From an uncultured Clostridia bacterium (lineage in GTDB: Bacteria > Bacillota > Clostridia > Christensenellales > UBA1242), in the NCBI GenBank assembly GCA_944351415.1, contig CALVPQ010000004.1, positions 86 through 64,085 of the forward strand: 64,000 nucleotides of DNA, in the 5' to 3' direction. The notes under the pieces are model-generated. The model ran no database searches and was not told where the DNA came from. It was given only the letters and a program-made list of their open reading frames with translations. A program made the position numbers and the translations under genes. Positions 6,029 through 46,500 of the stretch are shown here, one piece after another (position 1 is the stretch's first letter; each line of letters begins with the position of its first letter).

Positions 6029-8644
6029 ATGGAGCATGAAAGCAGAAAGTCTTTGGAAGAAATTTTTCAAGACACAAAAGTTGAAAAAGTCGATACTGTA
6101 GACAACCTTAAAAAATCCTTTATTTCTTATGCTATGGCGGTTAATGTGTCTCGTGCTATTCCTGATGTGCGTGATGGACTTAAACCTGTGCATAGACGTA
6201 TTCTTTATGCCATGGGTGAGATGAATAACTTCTATGATAAGCCTACAAAAAAATGTGCTAGAATTGTCGGCGATGTTATGGGTAAATATCACCCACACGG
6301 TGATAGCTCAGTTTACGATGCTATGGTTCGTCTTGCACAAGATTTCTCTATAAGATACCCTCTTGTTGATGGGCAAGGTAACTTTGGCTCAGTTGATGGA
6401 GACCCACCTGCTGCTATGCGTTATACAGAAGCAAGACTTTCAAAAATTGCTGGGCTTATGCTTGAAGATATTGATAAAAATACAGTTGATTTTTATCCTA
6501 ACTTTGATAATACACTTATGCAACCTTCTGTGCTTCCATCAAAAATTCCTAATTTGCTTATAAATGGGTCTGATGGTATTGCAGTTGGTATGGCAACGAA
6601 CATTCCACCTCATAATCTTACCGAAGTTTTAAATGGTCTGCAAGCACTTATTGATAACCCTGACATTGATATTGATGAACTTATTAAAATTATCCCTGCT
6701 CCTGACTACCCTACAGGTGGAATCATTATGGGACGGGCTGCTGTTAAACATGCTTATAAAACTGGCCGTGGCGGAATTGTTGTTCGTGGCAGAGCTGAAA
6801 TTGAAGAAATGAATAATGGCAGAAGCCGAATTATTATTACAGAACTTCCATATCAGGTTAACAAAGCTCAGCTTATTATTCAGATGGCAGACTTAGTTAA
6901 AAATAAAAAACTTGATGGTATAAGTGATATTAAAGAAGAATCTGACCGCAAAGGTATGAGAATCGTTGTTGATATTAAAAAGGATTTTAATGCTCAGGTT
7001 GTGCTTAATTCTCTTTATAAACAAACTCAACTTCAAAAAAGTAGCGGTATAATCTTCCTTGCTCTTGTTAATGGCACTCCACGTATTTTAAACCTTAAAG
7101 AAATGCTTTACTACTATCTTGAACATCAAAAAGAAGTTTTAACTAGAAAAACTCAATATGAACTTGAAAAAGCAAAGGAACGTGAACACATTGTTAAAGG
7201 TCTTGTTATTGCACTTGCAAATATCGATGAAGTGATTGCAATCATTAAATCTTCTGATGATAAACAAGATGCATCTATAAAACTTACACAAAATTTTGAA
7301 CTTGACGAAATTCAGGCAAATGCTATACTTGAAATGAAACTTTCAAGACTTACCTCTCTTGAAGTTGAAAAATTAAATGAAGAGCTTCGCCAATTAGATG
7401 CACTTATTATTGACCTTGAAGATATACTTGCAACCCCTGCTCGTATTCTTAAAATTTTAAGAGATAATTTTGAAGAAATTAAAAATAAGTATGGTGACGA
7501 AAGAAAAACTGAAATCAGTCTTGATGCTGGTGGCATTGATATTGCAGACCTTATCGAAAAAGAAGATGTTGTTGTTTCTATGACTCATCAAGGCTATATC
7601 AAAAGAATGTCCACAAGCGAATATAAGTCTCAAAATCGTGGCGGTGTGGGCGTGACTGCGCATAAAACCAAAGAAGAAGATTATGTTGAAAATATGTTTA
7701 TCACAAATACTCATGATGACCTTCTTTTCTTTACAAATCTTGGACGTGTTTATTGCATTAAGGCTTATGAAGTGCCTGAAGCCCAAAAAACAGCAAAAGG
7801 TAGAGCTATAATCAACTTGCTTATGCTGAGTGAAGGTGAAAAAGTCACAACTATTATCCCTCGAAAAGATGGGGCTGAAGGCAATCTAATCATGGCGACA
7901 AAATTTGGTCTTATCAAGAAAACTAGACTTGAAGAATTTTCATCTATACGTAAGGTTGGGAAGAAAGCTATTCACCTGCTTGATAAAGACGAACTTATTG
8001 GTGTTGAAGTTTCTTCTGGACAAGATGACATCTTGATTGCTTCTCATGATGGAAAGGCTATACGTTTCAGCGAAACTGATGTGCGTAATATGGGAAGAAA
8101 TAGCCAAGGTGTGAGAAGTTTAAAACTTAGCGAAAATGACTATATTGTTGACATGGCAATTGTTAAACCTAATTCTCAAATTATAACTATTTCTGAAAAT
8201 GGTTATGGAAAACGAAGTGACGTTGAAGAATATAGGCTTCAAAGTCGTGGCGGTAAAGGTGTTAAAGCTGGTGTATTCAATCAAAAAACAGGCAAACTTG
8301 TGGCTTTAAAACAATCAATCCTTGATGATGATATTATGCTTATTGCTGATAATGGTGTGATTATAAGAACACCTGTTGAACAAATAAGTTCTCTTTCAAG
8401 AGTTAGTCAAGGCGTAAGAGTTATGAAGCTTAGAGAAGGAAGTAAAATTGTTGGCGTTGCACTTGCAAAAAAAGAGGATGAAAATAAAGACTTAGATGAA
8501 AATATTCAAAAACAAGAAATATCTGAAAGTGGAAATGTCGAAAATGAAAATAACTTGACAAATGATGAAAAAAATGATATTCTAAAGCATCAAAACAACA
8601 TTTCGCAAACTGAAGATAATTTTGATGATGAGCCTATCAAGTAA
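6029..8644 (+). CDS. gyrA: DNA gyrase subunit A
   Basis: [48 protein letters not shown], active-site [11 protein letters not shown]-terminal beta-pinwheel repeats and an acidic tail. Confidence 0.97.
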
Positions 8645-8701: not shown

Positions 8702-8796
8702 GAGCTGTGAAGCTAATTTTTAAAATAAATTTTAAAAATTATCAAAACAACTTGTTGTTTTGAAAGAAGCCGAGAGGCTTCTTAGCTTCACAGCTC
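8702..8796 (+). ncRNA. four-way-junction hairpin module (closing stem + 3 hairpins + T6); candidate structured RNA or branched terminator
   Basis: 14-bp closing stem GAGCTGTGAAGCTA/TAGCTTCACAGCTC. Inner hairpins at 8716-8739, 8742-8763 and 8764-8783 are all perfectly paired. TTTTTT follows. Confidence 0.5.
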
Positions 8797-16309: not shown

Positions 16310-16402
16310 GCGATTGAAAGTGCACACAAATTTTTGTGTGCCAAAAAGCATTTGGCTTTTTGAAAAATTTTAAAGTTCCTTTAAAATTTTACTTTCAATC
16401 GC
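16310..16402 (+). ncRNA. four-way-junction hairpin module in the tmk leader; candidate structured RNA or branched terminator
   Basis: 12-bp closing stem GCGATTGAAAGT/ACTTTCAATCGC. Hairpins 16322-16341 (8 bp), 16342-16362 (8 bp) and 16364-16390 (12 bp) are all perfect. TTTTT follows. Confidence 0.5.
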
Positions 16403-16422
16403 TTTTTATAAAGGAGAAAAAT

Positions 16423-17061
16423 ATGAATAAAGGTTATTTTATTTCATTTGAAGGTGGAGAGGCTTGTGGGAAAAGCACACAAATAAAGATGCTTAAAGAT
16501 TATATCTCTTCACTTTCTCAAACAGATAAATTTTTATTTGTTAGAGAACCAGGCGGAACACCTTTAACAGAAGAAATAAGAAGGCTTATTTTAAATTATG
16601 AAATTGACAAACCACTCGAAATGACAGAGTTATTGTTATTTTGTGCTGCTAGAGTTGAAGATGTTGAAAAATGCATAAAACCTGCCCTAGCGCAAGGTAA
16701 AGTTGTTGTTGCAGACAGGTTTTATGATTCAACAATTGCATATCAAGGAATGGCACGGCAAATTATGAGCAGTGAAGATATACTTACACTTACAAAAAAA
16801 ATTATAGGCGATATTAAACCAGATTTAACGTTTTATCTTAAATTATCCCCAGAAGAAGCTTTTAAAAGAAAATTATCTATGAATGGAGAACTTGATAGAA
16901 TTGAAAAAGAAAGTATAGAATTTCACAGAGCAGTTGCAAAAGGATATGAACTTATTGCATCTATTGAAAAAGAAAGATTTTATGTGATTGATGCAAGTAA
17001 GCCATCAGATAAAATCTTTAATGAAATTATTAAAGTTTTAAAAAATAAAGATATTCTCTAA
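16423..17061 (+). CDS. tmk: thymidylate (dTMP) kinase
   Basis: P-loop ISFEGGEACGKSTQ, DRFYDSTIAYQG. AAGGAG sits 6 nt before ATG 16423. The 16336 ORF start lies inside the hairpin module and is rejected. Confidence 0.92.
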   Translation: MNKGYFISFEGGEACGKSTQIKMLKDYISSLSQTDKFLFVREPGGTPLTEEIRRLILNYEIDKPLEMTELLLFCAARVEDVEKCIKPALAQGKVVVADRFYDSTIAYQGMARQIMSSEDILTLTKKIIGDIKPDLTFYLKLSPEEAFKRKLSMNGELDRIEKESIEFHRAVAKGYELIASIEKERFYVIDASKPSDKIFNEIIKVLKNKDIL

Positions 17062-19132: not shown

Positions 19133-20314
19133 ATGAAAAATATTGGAACTATTTCTTGGGGTATAAAAGCACCTATTATTAGACCAGGAGACGACCTTGT
19201 TGAAATCACTTGTGAAAGTGTTATGAAAGCCGTTAAAGAAGGGAAAATTAAGCTTAAAGATAAAGATATAGTGGCAGTTACCGAAGCTGTTGTTGCAAAA
19301 AGTCAGGGAAATTTTGCGACCGTTGATGATATTGCTAAAGATGTGCGTGAAAAAATGGGTGAAGGCACTATAGGTGTGATTTTCCCTATCCTTTCTAGAA
19401 ACCGTTTCTCTAATATTTTAAAGGGTATCGCAAGAGGCTGTGATAACTTGATTATTCAGCTTTCCTATCCTTTTGATGAAGTTGGAAACCCACTTGTTTC
19501 TATAGATAGATTATATGAGCTTGGCATTACAAACTTTAACAAAACTTACACAGAAAAGCAATTTTATAAAATCGTTGGAAAGATTGAACACCCTTTCACT
19601 GGGCTTGATTATATAGATGTATATAAAAAAATCTGTGGTGAAAATTGTAAGATAATTCTTTCAAATGACCCTACAACTATCCTAAAATATACAAAAAAAG
19701 TTATTTCTGCTGATATTCACTCTCGCCACAGAAATAAAGCTTTGCTTTTAAAACGTGGAGCAAAAAAAGTTATAACTCTTGATGAAATCCTTAATCATTC
19801 TGTTAATGGAAGTGGTTTTAATGAAGAGTTCGGAGTGCTTGGCTCTAATCTTTCAACTGATGAAAAACTAAAACTTTTCCCTAGAGACACCAAAACCTTT
19901 GTTAGTAAATTACAAAAAAGACTTTGTGAAGTGAGTGGTGTTAAAATGGAATGTATGGTGTATGGCGATGGAGCATTTAAAGACCCTGTCGGCGGAATTT
20001 GGGAACTTGCTGACCCTGTTGTTTCACCTGCATACACAGGTGGACTTGAAGGAACACCTAATGAAATTAAATTGAAATATGTTGCTGACAATCAAATTGG
20101 AGAACTTAAAGGTAAAGAAGCGGAAGAAGCTATAAAAGATATAATCACTAAAAAAAGTAAAAACTTAAAAAATCAAAGTGTTTCGCTTGGCACTACTCCA
20201 AGACGTTATACCGACCTTCTTGGCTCTCTTTCTGATTTAACAAGTGGAAGTGGCGACAAGGGCACACCTATAGTTTTGATAACAGGTTATTTTGATAACT
20301 ATGCTGATGAATAA
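19133..20314 (+). CDS. CofE-like (F420-0:gamma-glutamyl ligase family) protein
   Basis: N-terminal GIKAPIIRPGDDLVEI ... DKDIVAVTEAVVAKSQGN matches the CofE-fold signature found in about 400-aa Firmicute homologues. AAAGGAG SD. Confidence 0.6.
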   Translation: MKNIGTISWGIKAPIIRPGDDLVEITCESVMKAVKEGKIKLKDKDIVAVTEAVVAKSQGNFATVDDIAKDVREKMGEGTIGVIFPILSRNRFSNILKGIARGCDNLIIQLSYPFDEVGNPLVSIDRLYELGITNFNKTYTEKQFYKIVGKIEHPFTGLDYIDVYKKICGENCKIILSNDPTTILKYTKKVISADIHSRHRNKALLLKRGAKKVITLDEILNHSVNGSGFNEEFGVLGSNLSTDEKLKLFPRDTKTFVSKLQKRLCEVSGVKMECMVYGDGAFKDPVGGIWELADPVVSPAYTGGLEGTPNEIKLKYVADNQIGELKGKEAEEAIKDIITKKSKNLKNQSVSLGTTPRRYTDLLGSLSDLTSGSGDKGTPIVLITGYFDNYADE

Positions 20315-20318
20315 AATT

Positions 20319-20357
20319 AAAAAATCCATAAAGTAAATTACCCTTTATGGATTTTTT
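20319..20357. terminator. bidirectional terminator between convergent genes
   Basis: AAAAAATCCATAAAG (20319-20333) pairs with CTTTATGGATTTTTT (20343-20357), 15 perfect bp. Confidence 0.75.
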
Positions 20358-20377
20358 ATATAATTGAGATTTATTTT

Positions 20378-21055
20378 TTATGTCCACCCATCTGAATTTG
20401 ATTCTGAAATTATTTCTTGGCGCAAGCGTATGTATTCTTCATAGTCGATAACACCATTTTGATATAAACTTTTTGCATCTTTAAGTCTTCGATATTGTTC
20501 TGATGAATTGTCTATACGATTATAGTAAATTGCTCCATAGTCTGAACCAATACCTACAAAATAGCCAACAAATGTTAATATAACAAAAATAAACCCACCG
20601 AAGAAAAACTGAAGTATTGAAATGCCAACTATTAGCCAAACATGCTCTATAAGTTCTTCTTGATTATATTTTGCAAAATTTTTTACTTTAAGACCGACAA
20701 TAAAACCTATTATTCCAACCACTGAAACAATAATACAACTTACCAATATCTTAGTGCGATTTTCATCATAGTCATAAGATGAATCTTGGCGAAGTTCACC
20801 ACTTCTGATAGCAAATACAATACCTAAAATTGCCATAGAAAGCACACAAAGTATACCAAAAACTACAGAAAGATAGCCAGACCATAAAAACCACTTATTT
20901 TTTGAATTACCATTTTTATAGCGTGCAAAAACAGAGCTTGTGTATTTATCATCAATCTGCTCATCGAACTCTAAATCTTCTGGTTTTATATTTCTAGGAA
21001 TTGAATCTCTAAGTTCTTCCTTTGCCTCATCACTTAGCTTATACTTGTCTTCCAT
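20378..21055 (-). CDS. membrane protein with C-terminal SHOCT domain
   Basis: Four TM helices, then LKDAKSLYQNGVIDYEEYIRLRQEII (SHOCT-like). No SD; a consensus promoter abuts the ATG. Confidence 0.7.
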   Translation of the reverse strand: MEDKYKLSDEAKEELRDSIPRNIKPEDLEFDEQIDDKYTSSVFARYKNGNSKNKWFLWSGYLSVVFGILCVLSMAILGIVFAIRSGELRQDSSYDYDENRTKILVSCIIVSVVGIIGFIVGLKVKNFAKYNQEELIEHVWLIVGISILQFFFGGFIFVILTFVGYFVGIGSDYGAIYYNRIDNSSEQYRRLKDAKSLYQNGVIDYEEYIRLRQEIISESNSDGWT

Positions 21056-21062
21056 GATTTAT

Positions 21063-21091
21063 ATTATAGCATACTTTTTGCTATTTGTAAA
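21063..21091 (-). promoter_or_regulatory. sigma-A type promoter giving a probable leaderless mRNA
   Basis: On the - strand: TTTACA, 17 nt containing TGC (extended -10), TATAAT, 7 nt, then ATG (21055). Confidence 0.55.
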
Positions 21092-21103
21092 GACAATACT
21101 TTT

Positions 21104-22135
21104 TTAAACTGTTTTTCTCTCTCCCCTAAATTTGCAAAGATTTGTTAATACTTCATATTCTGTGCTTTCTATTATTGGTGCTAAATCGCTTGCATTATCC
21201 ATTATTAAAACACTGTCGCCTATTTTGCAATTTATATCTGTAACGTCCACCATAAAAGCGTCCATACAAATATTACCTGTTGAGTGCGCTTGTTTCCCAT
21301 TTATTTTAACAATCAACCTATTAGATAATTTTCGTGGCAAGCCATCACCATATCCAAGCGGTATTGTTGCTATGGTGATATTCTTCTGGGCTGTGTAGCC
21401 ACATAAATAGCCAACATGTTCGCCTTTACTTACCTGTTGAATATCAACTATTGTGCTTTCTATACTAAGCACCGGCTTTACAAATTCATTGCCATAACCA
21501 TAGACTTCAAGTCCTACCCTAAACATATCAACATTAAGCTCTTCAAAGATACTTCGTCCGCCCCCTACATGTTTAATAGTGTGCCACTCTTCTGGGATAA
21601 GCTTAGCAAGTTTAAAAAATAGTTCTTTTTGTTTTTCTGTATAATCTCTATCTGTGGTAAGTGAAGAAAAATGTGTGTAAATACCTGTAAGAGGGGTATT
21701 TTTCTTTTTTAAATATGAAATTATTTTTGTAAGCTCTTTTTCACTTTTAATGCCATATCTATTCATACCTGTATTTAAACAAAGATGCATTTTAGGTGTT
21801 AATTGATATTTTTCTGCTATTTTTATCATTCTTTTAGCATCTAAATATGAAAATAAAGCAAAAGAAACATCATTTTGCATGCAAATTCTATAATCTTCGC
21901 ATGCACCAAAGACTATTATATCCTTCTTTGTATATTTTCTTGCTAGCAAAGCTTCACTTTGATTTGATACACCAAAATAATCAATTTTATCGTTTAAAAT
22001 TGAAATTATTTCTTTCATTCCATGCCCATAGGCATCTGCCTTTATCATAACACATATCTTGTGTCCTGCAATTTCTTGTATTTTTTCAACATTATGAATT
22101 AAATTTTTGCTATTTAAAAAAATTTTTGAAAACAT
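21104..22135 (-). CDS. alr: alanine racemase
   Basis: PLP-lysine motif VMIKADAYGHG. C-terminal beta domain with conserved YGDG-like LGYGDGLPR. Confidence 0.9.
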   Translation of the reverse strand: MFSKIFLNSKNLIHNVEKIQEIAGHKICVMIKADAYGHGMKEIISILNDKIDYFGVSNQSEALLARKYTKKDIIVFGACEDYRICMQNDVSFALFSYLDAKRMIKIAEKYQLTPKMHLCLNTGMNRYGIKSEKELTKIISYLKKKNTPLTGIYTHFSSLTTDRDYTEKQKELFFKLAKLIPEEWHTIKHVGGGRSIFEELNVDMFRVGLEVYGYGNEFVKPVLSIESTIVDIQQVSKGEHVGYLCGYTAQKNITIATIPLGYGDGLPRKLSNRLIVKINGKQAHSTGNICMDAFMVDVTDINCKIGDSVLIMDNASDLAPIIESTEYEVLTNLCKFRGERKTV

Positions 22136-22210
22136 AACATTATATATTCTAAAAAATTATTTTATGTTTAAAAATTTTTAGATTTTATAAATAATAGTTG
22201 ACACAAAAAA

Positions 22211-22301
22211 GGTCTAGCAACCACACGCATGAAATGCGTGCAAAAACGCAGAATGCGTTTGGCAACTTTTGAATTTACTTCAAAAGTTGGGCTGCTAGAC
22301 C
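22211..22301 (-). ncRNA. four-way-junction hairpin module between ltaS-like gene and alr; candidate structured RNA or branched terminator
   Basis: Closing stem GGTCTAGCA/TGCTAGACC (9 bp, plus CC/GG after one A-C mismatch). Hairpins 22224-22240, 22244-22260 (both 7 bp, GAA loop) and 22263-22289 (11 bp). The T6 tract is on the - strand (22205-22210). Confidence 0.5.
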
Positions 22302-22374
22302 TGTGGAATGACTGAATTATTTATCATAATAAAATCAATTATAATCTCTTTTTATAACTTTTTTATAATCTAAG

Positions 22375-24396
22375 TTAAACATATTGTGAGCCAAGTTTTA
22401 TTGTTCCATTAATTCCATTTTCATAGATGATTTCAAGTTCTTCCTGACGTTTAAAAAACCTATTTGCATTTTTATTGAAATTTTCAATATCTTGGTCTGT
22501 TACATTATCGCCTACAATATAGATGTCAGTGATATTTAAACTATAAATATCTTCGGTAAACATTCCATTTAAGTGTGAAGCAAAGAAAGAATTTTTTATT
22601 TCTTCAGAGAAAATAGAAAATCCATACAATAAATTGGTATTTGAAGGGAGCCCATATACATCACATATTGTAGGAAGAACATCATAAGTGTTGCAGAATG
22701 TATCTATTATCTCACCTTCTCCTTGAGTAAGTTTAGGGCTATAGAGCATTAAAGGTATATTATAGGCAAAGGTTTCTTGAAAATCAGATTTTTCGATACC
22801 TTTAACTTTTAAACTTAAGTCATGATAATAGGCATTATGGTCAGCAAAAAGCAAAATTGATGTATCACTAGCTCTTCCACGTTCTTCAAGTTCTGATATA
22901 ATATTTGCCACTGTGTGGTCAAGGTCTATGAAGGCTGCCTTATAATAATAAAAATGTTTATAGTCACTTTCATCAGTTGGAATTGTGAAAGGTGTGTTTT
23001 CTTCAACCCATACAGAATACTCTTCAAAATTTTCATCATAAATTTGATAATATTCTTCGTAATAAGGATTCCTGTATGTATAAGGTCCATGTGTTGAGAT
23101 TGTTGCAAAGAAAGTTAAAAATCTATCGGTGTCTGGAATGATATAGTCCATTAAATTGGAAGAAAAATCTAAATCGGTAAACCATTTACCCCAGCCCTTT
23201 TGTTCTTGCTCGCCTGTGTAATCTTCAAGCATATACATATAATCAAAACCTAAACCACTTATATGAGTTACATCTCTATTATAAAAATCCCCTGTATTTT
23301 GGTGCACGTAGGTTGTGACAGTTTCTTCATCACTTGATGTTGCTTTAAATAATTTTGGAAGAGCATAATCAAAGTTATAGCCATTTTCTAATGCTTCTGT
23401 GATAGAAATGTTTCTTGGTGTTGAACCATTAAGAACTATACCTTCGCTATTATTTGTTCTATTTCTTGCATGAAAACCTGTGAAGGATATTGAATTATTG
23501 CCACTTGCAATAGAATATAGAGTTGGGGTATTGAATGGGTCTATCGCATACCAATCCATGCTTTCGCACAAAATTACGATTAAATTATCTCCATATAATG
23601 GAGCATCTGGATTTTCCGCTTGATAACCTTCATCTATAAAATTTTGATAAAAATCTTTCTCATTATTATCTGCTTCATTATGAAAAATCAAATTAAGCAC
23701 ACTCTTTGTGTAGAACCCATAGTTTCCAAATTTTTCAAAAGCATCAAGCTTAAATTGAAAGTTATTCCATAAATATTTATCACTGCTTTCAATTTCTGAC
23801 TGCCCAGGTTCTGTGTCGGCAAGTGTGTGCTCTTGTAGTCCAAATAAACCAAGACCCATGGACCAACATAGCACTGTAGTTGCAAGAACTATAACAGGCA
23901 TAGAAAAGTTTTTTATTGTGACTGTTTTTTTGTTCTTTTTTACTAGAATAACCCCAGTTACAACTATAACAACATAAATTGCAAAGTTTAAAAATACTCC
24001 ACCCCAGTCTATTACATCTGCAGTTATAGCTGAAGTAGCCTCACCGCCTAAATAAAATAAATCAAAAGATAAAATATCGCCAAAGATATTATACATTGTT
24101 GAGTTTGCAATATTTAAAGCACATTGTATAAACAATAAAAGGTAGTATAGAATTTGCATAGCTATTTTGTTATGCACAACATAAATTAAGCCTGCAAGCA
24201 TTAAAATAATTGCAAAGTCAAATAAAAAATATGATGGAAAAACCATTAACGAGCCTTCTGTATTTCTAAAGCCTAGATATAAAAAGTTAGCCATTTCAAA
24301 AATGATGGCAAAAAATATAAATAATGCAGGAAAAATAAAATTATTTGTTGATATTTCTTTCTCTTTGATTTTCATACTCACCTTTAGTTTATCCAT
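22375..24396 (-). CDS. LtaS-family sulfatase-domain protein (lipoteichoic acid synthase / phosphoglycerol transferase type)
   Basis: N-terminal 5-TM block followed by an extracellular sulfatase domain (LIVILCESMDWY, ISTHGPY, LFADHN). Start is uncertain: GTG 24423, ATG 24396 or ATG 24375. Confidence 0.8.
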   Translation of the reverse strand: MDKLKVSMKIKEKEISTNNFIFPALFIFFAIIFEMANFLYLGFRNTEGSLMVFPSYFLFDFAIILMLAGLIYVVHNKIAMQILYYLLLFIQCALNIANSTMYNIFGDILSFDLFYLGGEATSAITADVIDWGGVFLNFAIYVVIVVTGVILVKKNKKTVTIKNFSMPVIVLATTVLCWSMGLGLFGLQEHTLADTEPGQSEIESSDKYLWNNFQFKLDAFEKFGNYGFYTKSVLNLIFHNEADNNEKDFYQNFIDEGYQAENPDAPLYGDNLIVILCESMDWYAIDPFNTPTLYSIASGNNSISFTGFHARNRTNNSEGIVLNGSTPRNISITEALENGYNFDYALPKLFKATSSDEETVTTYVHQNTGDFYNRDVTHISGLGFDYMYMLEDYTGEQEQKGWGKWFTDLDFSSNLMDYIIPDTDRFLTFFATISTHGPYTYRNPYYEEYYQIYDENFEEYSVWVEENTPFTIPTDESDYKHFYYYKAAFIDLDHTVANIISELEERGRASDTSILLFADHNAYYHDLSLKVKGIEKSDFQETFAYNIPLMLYSPKLTQGEGEIIDTFCNTYDVLPTICDVYGLPSNTNLLYGFSIFSEEIKNSFFASHLNGMFTEDIYSLNITDIYIVGDNVTDQDIENFNKNANRFFKRQEELEIIYENGINGTIKLGSQYV

Positions 24397-24551
24397 TTTA
24401 TCTTCTAACTTACAATATAGCACTTATTATATTACAATTTGCTATAAAAGTAAATAAAAAAATATAAATATATAAAATATTTATACAAAAAATAAAATAA
24501 AAAAAACGTTCTTGTATATAACCTTATAAAAACGTTTTTTTTATTTTTAAA

Positions 24552-24887
24552 TTAAATTAAACAAAGTGGAACTATTATTCCGGCAATAACAATAAGCAAG
24601 CAAATAACATAAAGCACTTTCCAAACAACTTGCTTTGACCTTACATAACGCCATGCTAAAATTGCAACAATAACTATCATTATTGCGGTTGCAATACCTT
24701 GTAAAGCTTTTATTGCAGTGTTAAGTGAGTTTGCATTAATTGCAGACAAAATAAGTGATACTGCATATAAAACTGTTACGGCTACTATTGTCCAGAATGA
24801 TATTTTATTAAGTCCCCAAAAATTGCTCTTCTTTGAACTTGATGATGAGCTTGAACTCTTTGAAGATGATGATTTCTTAGTTGCCAT
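24552..24887 (-). CDS. small membrane protein with poly-Ser N-terminus
   Basis: 111 aa. MATKKSSSSKSSSSSSSSKKS followed by three TM helices. Confidence 0.55.
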   Translation of the reverse strand: MATKKSSSSKSSSSSSSSKKSNFWGLNKISFWTIVAVTVLYAVSLILSAINANSLNTAIKALQGIATAIMIVIVAILAWRYVRSKQVVWKVLYVICLLIVIAGIIVPLCLI

Positions 24888-24980
24888 TTATTTATCCTCC
24901 TAGCATGCATTATACTATTATTTATTTTAGTTGTCAATTTATTGTTATATTTTCTTATTAAATTTTTTAAAATATTATTT

Positions 24981-25202
24981 TTAAGGCTCTTTTTTTATCT
25001 CAATTATTTTGTCACTATACATTATTAAATATGGTATGTATTCTTCCCATCTATAACTTCTTATCGGCATGGGGCGATGATTAGAAAAATATAATACTAG
25101 AGCAGGTTTTATTCCATTATAATTATCAACAAATCGGTAGCCAACAAGCCTACCAGACATAATTAGTTTTTTAATTTCAGCATGATAATTATAATAACTC
25201 AT
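24981..25202 (-). CDS. hypothetical small protein
   Basis: 73-82 aa ORF (ATG 25202 or TTG 25229), no SD, no recognisable motif. Confidence 0.4.
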   Translation of the reverse strand: MSYYNYHAEIKKLIMSGRLVGYRFVDNYNGIKPALVLYFSNHRPMPIRSYRWEEYIPYLIMYSDKIIEIKKEP

Positions 25203-31016: not shown

Positions 31017-31093
31017 GCGCCGCTAGCTCAGCTGGATAGAGCGTTCGTCTACGGAACGAAAGGTCAGGGGTTCGAATCCCTTGCGGCGCACCA
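31017..31093 (+). tRNA. tRNA-Arg (anticodon ACG) with encoded CCA
   Basis: GCGCCGC-TA-GCTC-AGCTGGATA-GAGC-G-TTCGT-CTACGGA-ACGAA-AGGTC-AGGGG-TTCGAAT-CCCTT-GCGGCGC-A-CCA, a full 77-nt cloverleaf. Confidence 0.95.
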
Positions 31094-31118
31094 TCTTGAC
31101 TGCGTCTTGCAGTCTTTT
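31078..31118 (+). repeat. direct repeat copy 1 (tRNA 3' end + terminator, 41 nt)
   Basis: CCCTTGCGGCGCACCATCTTGACTGCGTCTTGCAGTCTTTT, identical to 31226-31266. Confidence 0.95.
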
Positions 31119-31122
31119 TTTT
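31098..31122 (+). terminator. intrinsic terminator after tRNA-Arg
   Basis: GACTGC-GTCTT-GCAGTC followed by T8. Confidence 0.8.
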
Positions 31123-31225
31123 AGGGATTCGAACCAAGGTTCGCCCGTCCCGGCGGGGTGAAAATCTCTTTCACCCGTCTTTGGCTAAAAACTTGGACAC
31201 CGCCAAGTTTTCTTTACGCGTCGAC
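31123..31225. other. GC-rich structured insert bracketed by the tRNA-end direct repeats
   Basis: About 50% G+C in a roughly 30% G+C background. Starts with AGGGATTCGAACC, an inverted copy of the tRNA T-arm. Hairpins GGGTGAAA/TTTCACCC (31156-31176) and AAAACTTGG/CCAAGTTTT (31188-31211). Ends in ACGCGTCGAC. Confidence 0.6.
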
Positions 31226-31266
31226 CCCTTGCGGCGCACCATCTTGACTGCGTCTTGCAGTCTTTT
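31226..31266 (+). repeat. direct repeat copy 2 (orphan tRNA 3' end + terminator)
   Basis: Identical 41 nt, 148 bp downstream of copy 1. No matching 5' acceptor strand upstream, so it is not a functional tRNA. Confidence 0.95.
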
Positions 31267-34332: not shown

Positions 34333-34359
34333 AGATGGACTTAAATGTCCATCTTTTTT
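34333..34359 (+). terminator. intrinsic terminator of the rubrerythrin gene
   Basis: AGATGGAC-TTAAAT-GTCCATCT followed by T5. Confidence 0.8.
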
Positions 34360-34392: not shown

Positions 34393-34493
34393 GGGCGAGT
34401 TTGCAAAAAAACTCAACAGAGTTTTTTTAGGCAAAACCTGTTTTGCCTTTAAAAGTTAAATGCTACCAGCATTTAACTTTTGCAAACTCGCCC
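34393..34493. ncRNA. four-way-junction hairpin module lying between two independent terminators; candidate structured RNA
   Basis: Closing stem GGGCGAGTTTGC/GCAAACTCGCCC (12 bp, extendable to 16). Hairpins 34405-34428 (10 bp), 34429-34448 (8 bp) and 34451-34481 (14 bp) are all perfect. A T-rich tract lies on the - strand side. Confidence 0.5.
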
Positions 34494-34610
34494 ACTCCAT
34501 ATCCCTCCGCTTATATATTGTTTATGAAAATATATTTTTGATTTAAAATTTATCATTAAAATTTGCCTTTTTTTTAAATTTTAAATGTATATTCTTTAAA
34601 TAATCTATTA

Positions 34611-34641
34611 AAAAAAGAAGATTGGTTGAATCTTCTTTTTT
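34611..34641. terminator. bidirectional terminator downstream of the MBL-fold gene
   Basis: AAAAAAGAAGATT-GGTTG-AATCTTCTTTTTT, 13 perfect bp. Confidence 0.75.
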
Positions 34642-34660
34642 ATAAATTTAAAATTTTAAT

Positions 34661-40524: not shown

Positions 40525-40552
40525 AACATGGACAAAAACGTCCATGTTTTTT
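40525..40552 (+). terminator. intrinsic terminator of the lipoprotein gene
   Basis: AACATGGAC-AAAAAC-GTCCATGTT followed by a T-run. Confidence 0.8.
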
Positions 40553-40768: not shown

Positions 40769-42019
40769 ATGAATTTTAACCCTTTTTTAGTTAAGCCGAA
40801 AAAAATTGAAAACATAGTTATGAATTTTAAAATGCTTGCACCAAAACCTTATAACATAAATGAAGTTGACCCTTACACTCGTGTGAGATGCATACTTATG
40901 AATGGCACTGAGTATGAAGCTGTGTGGTCAAAACACCATCTTAATAGGCATTGTGGAAATAATGATATAAGGCGAGCTGTTGGTTTTATTAGAAATTGTG
41001 AACAGCAACAACAAAAACTTATCTCCGCCCTAAAACCTGTTGATGAAAATTTATTACAGACAACTTTAGGCTACGAGCAATTGGCTGTGGATTTGACTGC
41101 AATCCTTGCACAAAGACAAACAAATGGTTTTGTTAAAAATGCACTAGACTTTGCCCTTCTTGAAGATTTTGACCATCTTTATAGGTATGCAAATCTTCTT
41201 GAAACTGACATGGGTGAACATGCTGAAAAATATATTGGCTCTTACACAGAAATAATGCCTGGCAGACCGACAGTTGCCCATCATCGTCACCCCTTTGACA
41301 ATATAAAAAAGCCTATAAGTAACATTTCTGCTGACCCAATCACAAAATGTGACGTTTCTATTATCACTGCAGCTGAACAACAGACGATGAATTATTATAT
41401 GAATTTAGGGGCTTTTTATAAAAACCAAAAAGGGCGAGAAATATACAGCGAAATTGCTATGGTTGAAGAAGAACACGTTTCTCAGTATGGTTCGCTTATT
41501 GACCCTTCTATGACTATACTTGATGACCTTTTAATGCACGAATACATTGAATGTTATCTCTATTTTTCTATGTATAATGATGAAATTGATAATCATATTA
41601 AACAAATTTGGGAGATGCTTTTTGAACAAGAGATTTCTCACCTGCATTATACACTTAAACTGGTTCAAAAATATGAGAATAAAGATTGGTTTGATGTGAT
41701 ACCTGGTGGAGATTTCCCAGAACTTATTGCATTTTCACCACAAAAAGAATATGTTAGAAAAGTTCTTGGTGAAACGGTTTGTTTGACATCTAACCTTGAA
41801 AATTATTGTGAAGTTAACAAGCTGTCAGATAATGCACTATTCTTTGAATATCAAAAGAAAGCCATAAAAGATTGCTCAGTTATGCCATCTCATCTTGTGA
41901 TTGAAGAGCATATAAAACAATTTAAAACCGACTATAGATTAGAAGATAAGGAGCACCCCATTAAGAGTTTAAGAAATAGAAAGGAGGATAATATAAATAT
42001 TGGAAGAGAAAAAAAATAA
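40769..42019 (+). CDS. ferritin-like superfamily protein (putative diiron, repeated ExxH motifs)
   Basis: GGAGG 8 nt before ATG 40769. EDFDH, EEEH and EQEISH motifs spaced as in diiron-carboxylate four-helix bundles. No closer family recognised. Confidence 0.5.
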   Translation: MNFNPFLVKPKKIENIVMNFKMLAPKPYNINEVDPYTRVRCILMNGTEYEAVWSKHHLNRHCGNNDIRRAVGFIRNCEQQQQKLISALKPVDENLLQTTLGYEQLAVDLTAILAQRQTNGFVKNALDFALLEDFDHLYRYANLLETDMGEHAEKYIGSYTEIMPGRPTVAHHRHPFDNIKKPISNISADPITKCDVSIITAAEQQTMNYYMNLGAFYKNQKGREIYSEIAMVEEEHVSQYGSLIDPSMTILDDLLMHEYIECYLYFSMYNDEIDNHIKQIWEMLFEQEISHLHYTLKLVQKYENKDWFDVIPGGDFPELIAFSPQKEYVRKVLGETVCLTSNLENYCEVNKLSDNALFFEYQKKAIKDCSVMPSHLVIEEHIKQFKTDYRLEDKEHPIKSLRNRKEDNINIGREKK

Positions 42020-42099
42020 GACTGAATACAGAATGTATTTAGTCTTTTTTATTATAAAAAAAATATTTATCAAAAAAATACAAGGTTAACCTTGTATTT

Positions 42100-43594: not shown

Positions 43595-46500
43595 TTATCC
43601 ATTATAATCGGTATCCCAACTTAAGTTTAGTGTGCCAAGGGTTAGTAAACCAGATGCATCGCTATCGTTATTTATATCCCTATCTGTTCCTGAAACTTTC
43701 ATTCTGATTATAATCTTTATATATTGGTCATAAGTGAATGAATCAAAGAATGTGATTGTTCCTGCTGCGTCTACTTCCGCATTACCAGAAGCACCATCAG
43801 TTGCATCAAGTGTGAAAGTAAAGTAGTTTGTATAATTTGCTATGTCTTGAGGGTTATCTCTGTTAACATCAAGATTGCTATTTGCATATAGTAGACTGAA
43901 AGCATCACCCCAACCAAGCTTTGTAATTGTAGAAGTTCTGCTTCCTTCACCGCCATCTAAGGTTACGAATGGAATAATTTCTAAAGTTGATTCACGTTGA
44001 AGAGCATAGTATTTGCCAGTTACAAAATAGTTCTTAGATACTCTATAGTTGAATGGAGTGTCTGTGCCCTGTCCGCCAAAATCTATACTTACAATATAAT
44101 ATTTTCTTACATTATAGTATTGTCTAGCTTCCAGTAAAGATGCATTTTCAACATAAATAATATCATCTTTAATTGAAGTTATGCTTATTCTGTCTGCATC
44201 AGCAGCTGTCAGGCTTGTGCTACCAGTTTCATTATCAGTAGTTTGTGAACCATCTGTATTATCAGTTTTGTCTTCTACAAGATTTATAGCAAACGTTTCA
44301 CTATCTTCTGGTAGATATACGTTATATTGATAGTATGATGTTGAAACTATTTCTTCATTAATATCATCAGCGGTATTATAAACATAATAGAATGTTGCAT
44401 TTTGGTCACGTGGAATAATCTCTAATTCATCACCAATTTTAATATTTGTTCTTAGGTATTGAGATATAGAAATGTAAACCGTTCTTGCCCAACTATATCC
44501 TGTGTTATTAATATTTACAATAGCTGGAGTATCGTTATAACGTTCTTTCTCGCCGTCGCCATCAGTATCTCTATACAAATACAATTCAAAGTTTGTTAAA
44601 CGGCCACCGCTTACTAAAACTTCAAGCGTATCATTAATAAAACTAAATTCTATACCATCAGAATTTTCAAGGTCTTCGCCACCACTCATTATATCAAATT
44701 CATCAATTAAAGTAAAGGCTTCTCCATCACGGACAGGTGCTTGTTCTTCCTCAAGAATTGATACTTCTCTTGTGATTGTAACGTTTACCTTTAAATCGTA
44801 ATACTCAATTACACCATTGTTATTATATTCAAGTCTAACAACCATCTGAGCATCTGCGGTATTGCTTTCTTCAAATAAATCAGTGTTTTCAATACGTGGA
44901 ACTTGGAAAGGTAGATATTCCTGACCTGCTACAACATTTGGCTGTTCTGCATCGCTTCCTGGATTTCTATAAGGGTCTCTAAGTGCAGTAAGCCCATTGA
45001 AAACAGTCTCTCCGCCACCCACTTCATTTGAACTTGTTATAGTGGCAAGTGTGTAACCCGTTGTTCCACTTCTTGTTTGTATTGTTGTCTGCTGTTCTGT
45101 TGTGTCTGATTCTTCTGTTGAAAGTTGTGTTTCTGTGTCTGTATCTCCAGTTAAAACTGGTGCTTCTGTTGGTTCTATTGGACTATTAATAATTGGGTTG
45201 TCTTCCATATCATAGAACATGATTGAATCTACAGATATATAGTTTAGCATAGGCACTTCAAAATATTCTTCATCTTCTGAAAGATTTGGCCATTTTGCAA
45301 GATTTTCATCAACTTCTATTGTATAGCCACCTTCCTGTTTTGCAACTAATCCACTATCCGTGATTGATGTTGGGTCTGAACTGAATAGATAAGCCTCTAT
45401 GCCTGTGATTTCAATAAGTTCAACTGTGCCATCAACATCTTCTGGTGGATAAGTTTGTGCATTGATATAGTAGCTACTGCTATCATTATTACCGCCTTCT
45501 TCTATTTGAACACTAAGAAGTTCATATTGTGCACCAAAATCAAGATAGCCAAGTTCGGTAAGTGCAATAGTATCCGCATTTATTTCAGGAGGTGAATATG
45601 AAGACTGCAAACTGAAATATAGAATATAAGTGAAACCATAAGGGTCTACTGCTTCAATATAATAGTATTGAGTTCCAAAAATAACTTCTTTTACAGAATT
45701 AAACGTTGTATTTTGACCTTCTCTGAGTGTATAGGTTTTGCTATTTTCATCATATATCCAAACCCTATCATCAGCAGTGCCTTGTATTATTGCATTTAAG
45801 TCTTCGCCTAATTTTTGCCCTACATTTGTTTCATTATTGTATTCAACACCTTCTATTGTTGAACCTGGAACATTCATTGTGATTGTAAAGTTTGAAGTTG
45901 CAAGTTCTACCGATGTGTTTTCACCATTTGTATGTCTTACTGAAACATGACCTTCTTGACCTTCTGTAAGTGAGTCTGAATCTGTTAGTGTGAAGCTTGA
46001 ATATACATTTTGACCATCAACTGTGATAAGGCTGGCAATATTGTATACATTACCCTCGTTTGAAACTACTGCACTATTTGTATCAACTTCTACAATATTT
46101 CCGCCATAAGTTATTTGATAGTCTGGAACTATTTTTACAACAATATAAAATTCTTTTTCATAGCTTACCGAGCTATCTTTTATAGGAACAGAGTATGTGA
46201 GTCTTGTGAGAACAAAATCACCTTGATTATCTGCTCCAAGTGGCAATAACCTATAGTCATAAGCATATTGCCCTGCATTTAGAATAGCAGATGAGAAGAG
46301 ATAGACATATCTATTTGTTCCATCACTATTAGCTTCAATACTGAAGCCCTCGCTTGCAATACCATAAGTTGAAATATATCCATCAAGAATTGCAACTAGC
46401 TCGGTATCATTTTCGTCTATATCTGATACGTTATTTCTGCTTTTATAATTAACACTTTCAAATGTTAAAGTTGCTCTGTCTGCACCAAAGTCACCTTCAA

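What the first reader, a model, noticed from the sequence alone, without database searches (positions are those of the whole stretch)
22205..22301. Four-way-junction hairpin module 3 between the LtaS-like gene and alr (minus-strand orientation)
The closing stem is GGTCTAGCA (22211-22219) with TGCTAGACC (22293-22301), extended by CC/GG across one A-C mismatch. The hairpins are CACGCAT-GAA-ATGCGTG (22224-22240), AAACGCA-GAA-TGCGTTT (22244-22260) and CAACTTTTGAA-TTTAC-TTCAAAAGTTG (22263-22289). The T6 tract (22205-22210, read on the - strand) follows the module in the direction of the flanking genes. The first two hairpins share the CGCA/TGCG core and a GAA loop, which hints at internal duplication. 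The module is clearly more GC-rich than its surroundings.
Basis: seen in the sequence. Interest (0 to 1): 0.8.

Follow-up and report, generated by a model that had tools for sequence, protein, structure and literature searches.

The report
Four-way-junction terminator-like RNA module
Between a cell-wall gene and the alanine racemase gene of an uncultured gut Clostridia bacterium lies a 91-base element that folds into a perfect four-armed RNA junction followed by a run of U; it is conserved in sister species and most likely stops transcription in an unusual, branched way.

Summary
On the minus strand, 22301-22211 folds into a 12-bp closing helix that encloses three perfect hairpins, followed directly by U6 (MFE -52.7 kcal/mol, z = -8.3).

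It is not a one-off. The four most stable 110-nt windows of the whole 64-kb window share this architecture (8702-8796 +, 16310-16402 +, 22211-22301 -, 34393-34493 -) but have no sequence similarity to each other. Each lies downstream of a same-strand gene and is followed by a T-run.

Orthologues of this module occur in two sister species (LtaS 83% and 76% identical). They keep the junction through compensatory changes and keep T6 unchanged, while the flanks have diverged. More distant relatives (LtaS 56-71%) have a 35-92 nt ltaS-alr spacer and no module. Further non-homologous modules occur elsewhere in the lineage. A C. acetobutylicum control has none, and neither do shuffled sequences at comparable energies.

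There is no Rfam match, and I found no description in the literature.

Best reading: a lineage-specific, branched intrinsic terminator that also forms a stable 3' end. It is a new variant of a known kind. This is unproven without 3'-end mapping. One sibling ends 16 nt before the tmk start codon, which argues against fully efficient termination there.

The parts
22375..24423 (-). Upstream gene: LtaS-like sulfatase-family membrane enzyme (stop codon at 22375-22377)
   Evidence: Pfam PF00884 Sulfatase, E = 2.8e-23. There are 107 homologues with a graded series of identities.
22302..22374 (-). 73-nt AT-rich spacer (18% G+C) between the ltaS-like stop codon and the module; not conserved in orthologues
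   Evidence: 5' flank 26-42% identical between species. Prefix folding shows only a weak AU hairpin here.
22290..22301 (-). 5' arm of closing helix P1 (RNA 5'-GGUCUAGCAGCC)
   Evidence: Two P1 pairs show changes on both sides in the orthologues.
22263..22289 (-). Hairpin P2 (transcribed first): 11 bp, loop GUAAA
22244..22260 (-). Hairpin P3: 7 bp, loop UUC
22223..22241 (-). Hairpin P4: 8 bp including a terminal G.U, loop UUC
   Evidence: Two pairs show changes on both sides in the orthologues.
22211..22222 (-). 3' arm of closing helix P1 (RNA 5'-GGUUGCUAGACC); contains the G.U that reads as an A-C mismatch on the plus strand
   Evidence: Closing the helix adds about -21 kcal/mol during the last 12 nt transcribed.
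22205..22210 (-). U6 tract directly abutting P1
   Evidence: It is 100% conserved in three species, while the next 15 nt are 20-43% identical.
22136..22204 (-). 69-nt spacer to alr (11% G+C). It has a TATAAT-like box 3 nt before the ATG and no Shine-Dalgarno sequence, so it may hold alr's own promoter.
   Evidence: the box is kept even in relatives that lack the module. The consensus scan gives only a 9/12 match, 22220->22191.
21104..22135 (-). Downstream gene: alanine racemase (alr)
   Evidence: Pfam PF01168 and PF00842
8702..8796 (+). Sibling module M1, 55 nt after gyrA, followed by T6; same architecture, unrelated sequence
   Evidence: An identical copy is present in an assembly from another sample (L018).
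16310..16402 (+). Sibling module M2 between a DAP-dehydrogenase-like gene and tmk, followed by T5. The tmk Shine-Dalgarno sequence starts 3 nt after the T-run, and a promoter-like TTGAAA-16-TAAAAT lies inside the module.
   Evidence: The orthologue L001 19685-19773 shows compensatory changes in P2 and P3.
34393..34493 (-). Sibling module M4, about 100 nt after a simple terminator of an MBL-fold hydrolase gene, followed by CTTTATTTTTT

Best explanation
The element acts as RNA on the minus strand, in the 3' untranslated region of the LtaS-like gene. It is a branched intrinsic (Rho-independent) terminator that also forms a stable transcript 3' end.

Proposed mechanism: as RNA polymerase transcribes it, the three inner hairpins fold one after another. 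This brings the two 12-nt arms of the closing helix next to each other across a junction with only four unpaired bases. When the 3' arm emerges, the 12-bp G+C-rich helix zips up directly against the U6 tract, as the stem of an ordinary terminator does, and the transcript is released. What remains is a compact, fully paired four-way junction at the 3' end, which should resist 3' exonucleases. The result is that ltaS-like transcription is insulated from alr.

Shown: the structure, its conservation with covariation, the invariant U-tract, its position and orientation, and the existence of a lineage-specific class of such modules. Inferred: termination itself, its efficiency, and 3'-end protection.
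For: 1. Structure. The fold is a clean 4-way junction, z = -8.25. The four lowest-energy 110-nt windows of the 64-kb window all have this architecture.

2. Conservation. Orthologues lie downstream of the same gene in L001 (LtaS 83% identical) and in L002/L014 (76%). RNAalifold recovers the same junction. 98% of cells are paired. Six pairs changed on both sides, against 2.3 +/- 1.1 in shuffles (2/500 reach the observed value) and 0-1 in slid controls. The module is 68-77% identical between species, the flanks 20-43%, and the T6 100%.

3. Terminator grammar. The helix abuts U6. Prefix folding shows the hairpins forming in sequence with no competing structure, and the closing helix adds -21 kcal/mol in the last 12 nt. 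No other terminator-like hairpin exists in the ltaS-alr spacer.

4. Orientation. All four window modules, and L012a, L016a and L017a, lie downstream of a same-strand gene. All have a T-run on that strand, though in L016a it is weak. L012a starts 20 nt and L016a 7 nt after a stop codon.

5. Strand. The wobble pairs are G.U on the sense strand (A-C on the other strand), and the sense strand folds better.

6. Not chance, and not general to low-GC genomes. An inverted-repeat-seeded scan of 277 kb of this lineage found 12 three-hairpin modules, against 1.7 per shuffle replicate. Two-hairpin modules were not enriched (2 found, one of them M3 misfolded on the plus strand, against 2.3 per replicate). 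Across 192 kb of C. acetobutylicum pSOL1 (31% G+C) there was no clean module.
Against: - There are no RNA 3'-end data, so termination is inferred.
- The 'loop' closed by the terminator helix is 67 nt. This is outside the 3-8 nt of canonical terminators, and the simple terminator scan does not call it.
- Sibling M2 ends 16 nt before the tmk start codon, with the Shine-Dalgarno sequence right after the T-run. In relatives without the module the two genes are 11 nt apart. M2 must therefore either leak or carry an internal promoter; a TTGAAA-16-TAAAAT match lies inside it.
- M4 follows a simple terminator rather than replacing it.
- L016b has no T-run on either strand.
- The stems are almost perfectly Watson-Crick, so the fold is also available to single-stranded DNA (z = -9.1). 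The G.U strand bias rests on few pairs.
- Covariation rests on only three species.
Confidence: 0.6

Rival explanations
1. It is an intercistronic or 3'-UTR RNA stability or processing element that does not terminate efficiently. It would work like REP/BIME elements in E. coli operons: the junction blocks 3'-5' exonucleases or sets a processing site, and so tunes the ratio of upstream to downstream gene expression within a still polycistronic transcript.
For: M2 and M3 sit between genes that are 11 nt and 35-92 nt apart, and probably co-transcribed, in relatives that lack the modules. M2 leaves only 16 nt before the tmk ATG. The stability is very high (-41 to -53 kcal/mol).
Against: The T-run that directly abuts the closing helix is invariant in the orthologues while the flanks diverge. 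A pure exonuclease barrier has no need for it. L012a, L016a and M1 sit at plain gene ends.
Confidence: 0.17
2. It is a stand-alone small RNA gene of about 100 nt with its own promoter. The closing helix plus U-tail is simply its terminator, and the junction has a function of its own, for example as a protein decoy or scaffold.
For: M4 lies about 100 nt beyond a separate simple terminator of the upstream gene. The spacers of 55-92 nt upstream of M1-M3 could hold AT-rich promoters.
Against: The sequence upstream of M3 is not conserved between species (26-42% identity). L012a and L016a begin 20 nt and 7 nt after a stop codon, leaving no room for a promoter. No loop or junction nucleotides are conserved within or between modules, so there is no recognisable binding surface. 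There is no Rfam match.
Confidence: 0.08
3. It is a DNA-level element: a structure-defined mobile or recombination-prone unit (like a MITE or REPIN, or the target or product of a junction- or hairpin-specific enzyme). Any terminator activity would be incidental.
For: - The modules were gained in a narrow clade at sites that are compact in relatives.
- Non-homologous modules occupy the orthologous 3' end of the MBL gene in the window and in L016.
- L017a and L006a are 87% identical over exactly the 91-nt module, with unrelated flanks. L006a lies between an integrase gene and tRNA-Arg, whose 3' halves are duplicated there in an att-like manner.
- L016b is flanked by 67-nt tandem repeats that copy its 5' arm.
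- The fold is equally available to ssDNA.
Against: There is no sequence similarity among modules within one genome and no extra copies in about 330 kb. No target-site duplications are visible at the helix ends. Orientation follows the upstream gene and a T-run is kept, which a DNA-only element has no need for. There is no match in phage records or viral contigs.
Confidence: 0.1
4. It is a chance accumulation of palindromes in AT-rich intergenic DNA with no function.
For: AT-rich spacers are full of inverted repeats.
Against: z = -8.25. Conservation with compensatory changes. A 7-fold excess over shuffles that is specific to exactly three hairpins. No clean module in a same-GC control replicon.
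Confidence: 0.02

Closest known systems
Canonical intrinsic (Rho-independent) terminators
   Same: A G+C-rich helix directly followed by a U-tract, downstream of a gene and in sense orientation. The helix forms only when its 3' arm is transcribed, just before the U-tract.
   Different: Instead of a 3-8 nt loop, the helix closes a 67-nt insert made of three perfect hairpins, a four-way junction with 0-4 unpaired bases. Simple-hairpin terminator scans miss it. Ordinary simple terminators coexist with it in the same genome.
Tandem or multi-hairpin terminator classes (the 'V-', 'U-' and 'X-shaped' classes of the WebGeSTer classification; recalled from my own knowledge)
   Same: Several hairpins are clustered at a gene's 3' end. 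Many of the inner hairpins here have an A-rich 5' arm and a U-rich 3' arm, like small bidirectional terminators.
   Different: In those classes the hairpins are independent and lie side by side. Here they are enclosed by a long-range closing helix that itself carries the U-tract, and the number of hairpins is always three.
REP/BIME/REPIN, BOX, ERIC and Correia-type intergenic repeats
   Same: Highly structured intergenic or intercistronic elements at gene 3' ends. They can stabilise upstream mRNA or terminate transcription, and they are gained and lost between close relatives.
   Different: Those are sequence families with many similar copies per genome. The modules here share architecture but no sequence, and no associated transposase was seen.
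tRNA / tRNA-like cloverleaf
   Same: Topology: one closing helix plus three hairpins.
   Different: The helices are 7-15 bp with 3-5 nt loops and there are no conserved tRNA nucleotides. ARAGORN and the Rfam tRNA model do not call it.

Membership tests
Intrinsic (Rho-independent) terminator | Stable G+C-rich helix immediately upstream of a U-rich tract | tested here: met
   A 12-bp P1 (7 G-C, 4 A-U, 1 G.U; duplex -21 kcal/mol) abuts U6. The U6 is invariant in three species.
Intrinsic (Rho-independent) terminator | Simple stem-loop with a short (about 3-8 nt) apical loop | tested here: not met
   P1 closes a 67-nt three-hairpin insert. The consensus terminator scan finds 0 sites in 20000-25000.
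Intrinsic (Rho-independent) terminator | Located downstream of a gene, in sense orientation | tested here: met
   It lies 73 nt after the ltaS-like stop codon on the same strand. The same holds for the sibling modules.
Intrinsic (Rho-independent) terminator | Transcript 3' ends map in the U-tract, and termination occurs in vitro without Rho | not testable with these tools
Dispersed intergenic repeat (REP/REPIN/MITE-like) | Multiple copies with sequence similarity in one genome | tested here: not met
   blastn-short of M1-M4 against the window and all loci finds only self and orthologue hits. Only 74 kb of this genome was available.
Dispersed intergenic repeat (REP/REPIN/MITE-like) | Terminal inverted repeats with target-site duplication, or an associated RAYT or transposase | tested here: inconclusive
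   The closing helix is a 12-bp inverted repeat, but no direct repeats flank it. Transposase genes were not searched genome-wide.
tRNA / tRNA-like element | Recognised by tRNA covariance or heuristic models | tested here: not met
   ARAGORN finds only tRNA-Arg at 31017-31093. Rfam RF00005 matches only there.
Riboswitch / regulated attenuator | Conserved unpaired nucleotides that form a binding pocket, and a mutually exclusive antiterminator | tested here: not met
   There are four or fewer unpaired junction bases and the loops are not conserved. Prefix folding shows no alternative structure. No Rfam match at E <= 10.
Any curated RNA family (Rfam 15) | Covariance-model match | tested here: not met
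   Nothing at the gathering threshold in the window except the tRNA. The 21800-22700 region gives only chance-level hits, E = 3.5-7.6.

The most novel reading that the evidence does not exclude
The modules are a lineage-specific family defined by architecture alone: exactly three hairpins in a clamped, fully paired four-way junction. They are actively generated, replaced or moved between loci, for example by a junction- or hairpin-specific enzyme or by template-switching. They are then kept because they terminate or insulate transcription. In short, they would be a structural, sequence-free kind of mobile terminator.

Observations that this reading would explain:
- recent gains inside formerly compact gene pairs;
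- non-homologous modules at an orthologous site;
- an 87%-identical module in unrelated flanks next to an integrase/tRNA-Arg site;
- enrichment of three-hairpin but not two-hairpin forms.
Probability: 0.12. Interest if true: 0.85.

Novelty: new variant of a known kind. Interest (0 to 1): 0.55.

Why it matters
Models and predictors of intrinsic termination assume a simple hairpin with a short loop.

A conserved class in which the terminator helix is closed over a pre-folded three-hairpin junction would have three consequences:
- It would show that RNA polymerase can be released by a long-range helix.
- It would mean that terminator annotation misses a share of sites in some uncultured gut Clostridia. 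Here that share is about 4 modules beside roughly 5-10 plausible simple terminators in 64 kb.
- It would offer compact, very stable insulator parts for low-GC hosts.

The modules also record recent rewiring of operons, because ltaS-alr and DAP-DH-tmk were compact pairs in relatives. The unexplained preference for exactly three hairpins, and the turnover of modules between loci, are open questions that could be tested directly.

Tried and rejected
- Rfam at gathering and at E <= 10: nothing.
- tRNA-like: rejected.
- Dispersed repeat: no similarity among modules.
- Phage or viral origin: no blastn match of M3 or L017a in 50,697 phage records, and a 30-base pattern from L017a/L006a found nothing in IMG/VR.
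- The metagenome scan with the LtaS alignment returned only an unrelated 43%-GC contig (L003). This wasted that cap.
- Small ORFs across the module: only 20-28 codon ORFs, so a peptide gene was not pursued.
- Internal duplication of two hairpins: not conserved in the orthologues.
- Literature: five full-text searches found no description. The terms combined intrinsic or Rho-independent terminator with four-way junction, branched, multi-stem, cloverleaf and multiple hairpins. The 2026 metagenome terminator paper PMC13613805 does not mention branched forms.
- The first T-run-anchored detector was too loose and missed M4 and L016a. I replaced it with an inverted-repeat-seeded scan.
- I did not build a covariance model, because MAFFT cannot align the non-homologous modules by structure.

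Full report
**Observation.** Every coordinate and string in the finding is exact.
- Read on the minus strand, which is the sense strand of both flanking genes, the RNA is: 5'-GGUCUAGCAGCC (P1 5' arm, 22301-22290); hairpin P2 (22289-22263, 11 bp); CC; hairpin P3 (22260-22244, 7 bp); UU; hairpin P4 (22241-22223, 8 bp); GGUUGCUAGACC (P1 3' arm, 22222-22211); then U6 (22210-22205).
- The A-C mismatch noted on the plus strand is a G.U wobble on this strand.
- The MFE is -52.7 kcal/mol, against -23.4 +/- 3.6 for 200 dinucleotide shuffles (z = -8.25, none as good). The plus strand gives -49.5 and a less regular fold.
- The module is 45% G+C in spacers of 11% and 18%.

**It is one of a class.**
- A sliding MFE scan of the whole window, both strands, put four windows at the top, and all four have the same architecture: 8702-8796 (+, after gyrA), 16310-16402 (+, after a DAP-dehydrogenase-like gene), 22211-22301 (-), and 34393-34493 (-, after an MBL-fold hydrolase gene).
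- Each has a 12-15 bp closing helix, exactly three perfect hairpins, 1-4 unpaired junction bases, a total length of 91-101 nt, and a T-run directly after the closing helix on the strand of the upstream gene.
- They share no sequence. blastn-short finds only self-hits and orthologues.
- Ordinary simple hairpin terminators also exist in the window, for example 34333-34354, 40525-40548, 42018-42046 and 31098-31114. The junction modules are therefore a second type, not the only one.

**Organism and flanking genes.** The upstream ORF is a sulfatase-family LtaS-like protein and the downstream ORF is alanine racemase. The nearest genomes are MAGs labelled 'uncultured Clostridia bacterium'. The window is 31% G+C.

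**Conservation of this module.**
- Downstream of the orthologous LtaS-like gene, L001 (83% protein identity) and L002/L014 (76%) carry the same element.
- RNAalifold on the four sequences returns the same four-way junction.
- On that structure 98% of cells are standard pairs. Six pairs have changes on both sides, spread over P1, P2 and P4. This compares with 2.3 +/- 1.1 in column shuffles (2/500 reach six) and 0-1 when the partners are slid by 1-3 columns. Only three species contribute, so this is supportive rather than conclusive.
- Between species the module is 68-77% identical and the flanks 20-43%, but the T6 is identical.
- Module M2 also has an orthologue in L001 (19685-19773), with compensatory changes in P2 and P3.

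**Gain in a narrow clade.**
- In relatives whose LtaS-like protein is 56-71% identical (L004, L006, L008, L010, L011, L012), the ltaS-alr spacer is only 35-92 nt and has no module. In L006 and L008 the DAP-DH and tmk genes are 11 nt apart.
- A TATAAT-like box a few bases before the alr ATG, with no Shine-Dalgarno sequence, is kept in all of these genomes. So alr probably has its own promoter whether or not the module is present. The consensus scan itself gives only weak matches in 22136-22204.

**The class elsewhere in the lineage.** An inverted-repeat-seeded scan of 277 kb (window plus non-redundant loci) found 12 three-hairpin modules with E <= -25 kcal/mol (M3, misfolded into two branches on the plus strand, is not among them).
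- L012 6046-6158 starts 20 nt after a glycosyltransferase stop codon and has a long T-run.
- L016 7891-8006 starts 7 nt after the MBL gene stop codon. This is the orthologous position to M4, but the sequence is unrelated and the T-run is weak.
- L016 8222-8340 has no T-run.
- L017 11220-11305 (-) lies 85 nt after a DUF2201 gene and is followed by T5.
- L006 1515-1596 is also one of the 12.
- Two of the 12 are doubtful: L006 1515-1596 is weak (-27.2 kcal/mol), and L012 11107-11230 lies inside a called gene and may be a false positive.
- Block shuffles gave 1.7 such hits per replicate. Two-hairpin modules were not enriched (2 observed, one of which is M3 misfolded on the plus strand, against 2.3 per replicate). 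The excess is therefore specific to exactly three hairpins.
- As a real-genome control, 192 kb of C. acetobutylicum pSOL1 (30-31% G+C) gave no clean module. It gave one imperfect three-branch fold inside a coding region.
- The 74 kb available for this species hold four modules.

**Mechanism.**
- Folding successive 5' prefixes of the transcript shows P2, P3 and P4 forming one after another with no competing structure.
- P1 then forms in the last 12 nt and lowers the energy by about 21 kcal/mol, right at the U-tract.
- This is the grammar of an intrinsic terminator, except that the loop is a pre-folded three-hairpin junction.
- I therefore read the element as a branched intrinsic terminator that leaves a very stable 3' end and insulates alr from ltaS-like transcription.
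- Shown: the structure, conservation, U-tract and orientation. Inferred: termination, its efficiency and 3'-end protection.

**Caveats.**
- M2's T-run is followed after 3 nt by the tmk Shine-Dalgarno sequence and after 16 nt by the ATG, in both species. tmk therefore needs either read-through or a promoter inside the module.
- A TTGAAA-16-TAAAAT match lies in P3/P4 of M2. P4 and P1 of M2 are almost invariant between the species, whereas P2 and P3 covary. This is compatible with an embedded promoter, but it is not evidence for one.
- M4 follows a separate simple terminator.
- L016b has no T-run.
- The helices are nearly all Watson-Crick, so single-stranded DNA would fold the same way. The G.U strand bias is small.

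**Signs of turnover.**
- L017a and L006a are 87% identical over exactly the 91-nt module, with unrelated flanks.
- L006a sits between an integrase gene and tRNA-Arg(acg), whose 3' halves are duplicated there. L017 has the same tRNA 8.5 kb away.
- L016b is preceded by two 67-nt tandem repeats that copy its 5' arm.
- These points, together with the non-homologous modules at the MBL 3' end, keep a DNA-level or mobile reading alive. However, there are no within-genome sequence families, no target-site duplications, and no phage or viral matches.

**Comparison with what is known.**
- There is no Rfam family, and the element is not tRNA-like.
- Five full-text searches found no description of four-way-junction or branched terminators. 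A 2026 metagenome-scale terminator study does not mention them.
- It works like an intrinsic terminator and meets the helix-plus-U-tract and position criteria, but it fails the simple-loop criterion.
- It resembles REP/BIME-type elements in position and possible stabilising role, but it is not a sequence family.

**Verdict.** This is a real, conserved, lineage-specific structural class. It is most likely a new variant of the intrinsic terminator. Interest is moderate (0.55). There is a smaller chance (about 0.12) that it is a structure-defined element that spreads or is generated actively.

Noticed in passing
window 31017-31266: tRNA-Arg(acg) at 31017-31093 has its own terminator (31098-31122). 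The tRNA 3' end plus terminator (about 31079-31117) is repeated at about 31226-31266, after a 110-nt G+C-rich stretch. This looks like an att-like remnant of an integrative element. Relatives L006, L008 and L017 carry the same tRNA, and in L006 it lies next to an integrase gene.
   Followed up: partly
window 22110-22160 (minus strand); also L001 12160-12200, L002 12180-12215, L004, L006, L012: The alr start region has no Shine-Dalgarno sequence. It has a TATAAT-like box 3-5 nt before the ATG and a conserved inverted repeat (GAGAAUAU...AUGUUCUC) that spans the start codon. It is conserved even in relatives with a 35-nt ltaS-alr spacer. It could be a leaderless mRNA, a start-codon-sequestering hairpin or an operator.
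   Followed up: no
window 16360-16426: A promoter-like TTGAAA-16-TAAAAT lies inside module M2, and the tmk Shine-Dalgarno sequence starts 3 nt after M2's T-run. This may be a composite of a terminator and an embedded promoter. P4 and P1 of M2 are nearly invariant between the window and L001, while P2 and P3 covary.
   Followed up: partly
window 34500-34660 (minus strand): The MBL-fold gene has its own simple terminator (about 34641-34610). Module M4 lies about 100 nt further on and is preceded by GGAGGG-N4-ATG, which opens a 14-codon mini-ORF running into the module.
   Followed up: no
L006 1515-1596 and L017 11220-11305: The same 91-nt module (87% identity) occurs in two genomes with unrelated flanks. 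In L006 it lies between an integrase gene and a tRNA-Arg with duplicated 3' halves.
   Followed up: partly
L016 8090-8340: Two 67-nt tandem repeats (94% matches) copy the 5' flank and 5' arm of a four-way-junction module (8222-8340). That module has no T-run on either strand.
   Followed up: partly
L011 18028-18332 (minus strand): In this relative the DAP-DH-tmk spacer is 293 nt, G+C-rich and full of GCGAGCG-type repeats. It folds at -91 kcal/mol and is a different kind of insert at the site where the window has M2.
   Followed up: no
all modules (for example window 34393-34493, 16340-16361; L012 6046-6158): Most inner hairpins have an A-rich 5' arm and a T-rich 3' arm, so each looks like a small bidirectional terminator. 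The modules could have arisen by clamping tandem terminator hairpins together.
   Followed up: no
window 43595-54829 (minus strand): A giant 3744-aa ORF. Its orthologues in L015, L017 and L019 have no Pfam hit on record.
   Followed up: no
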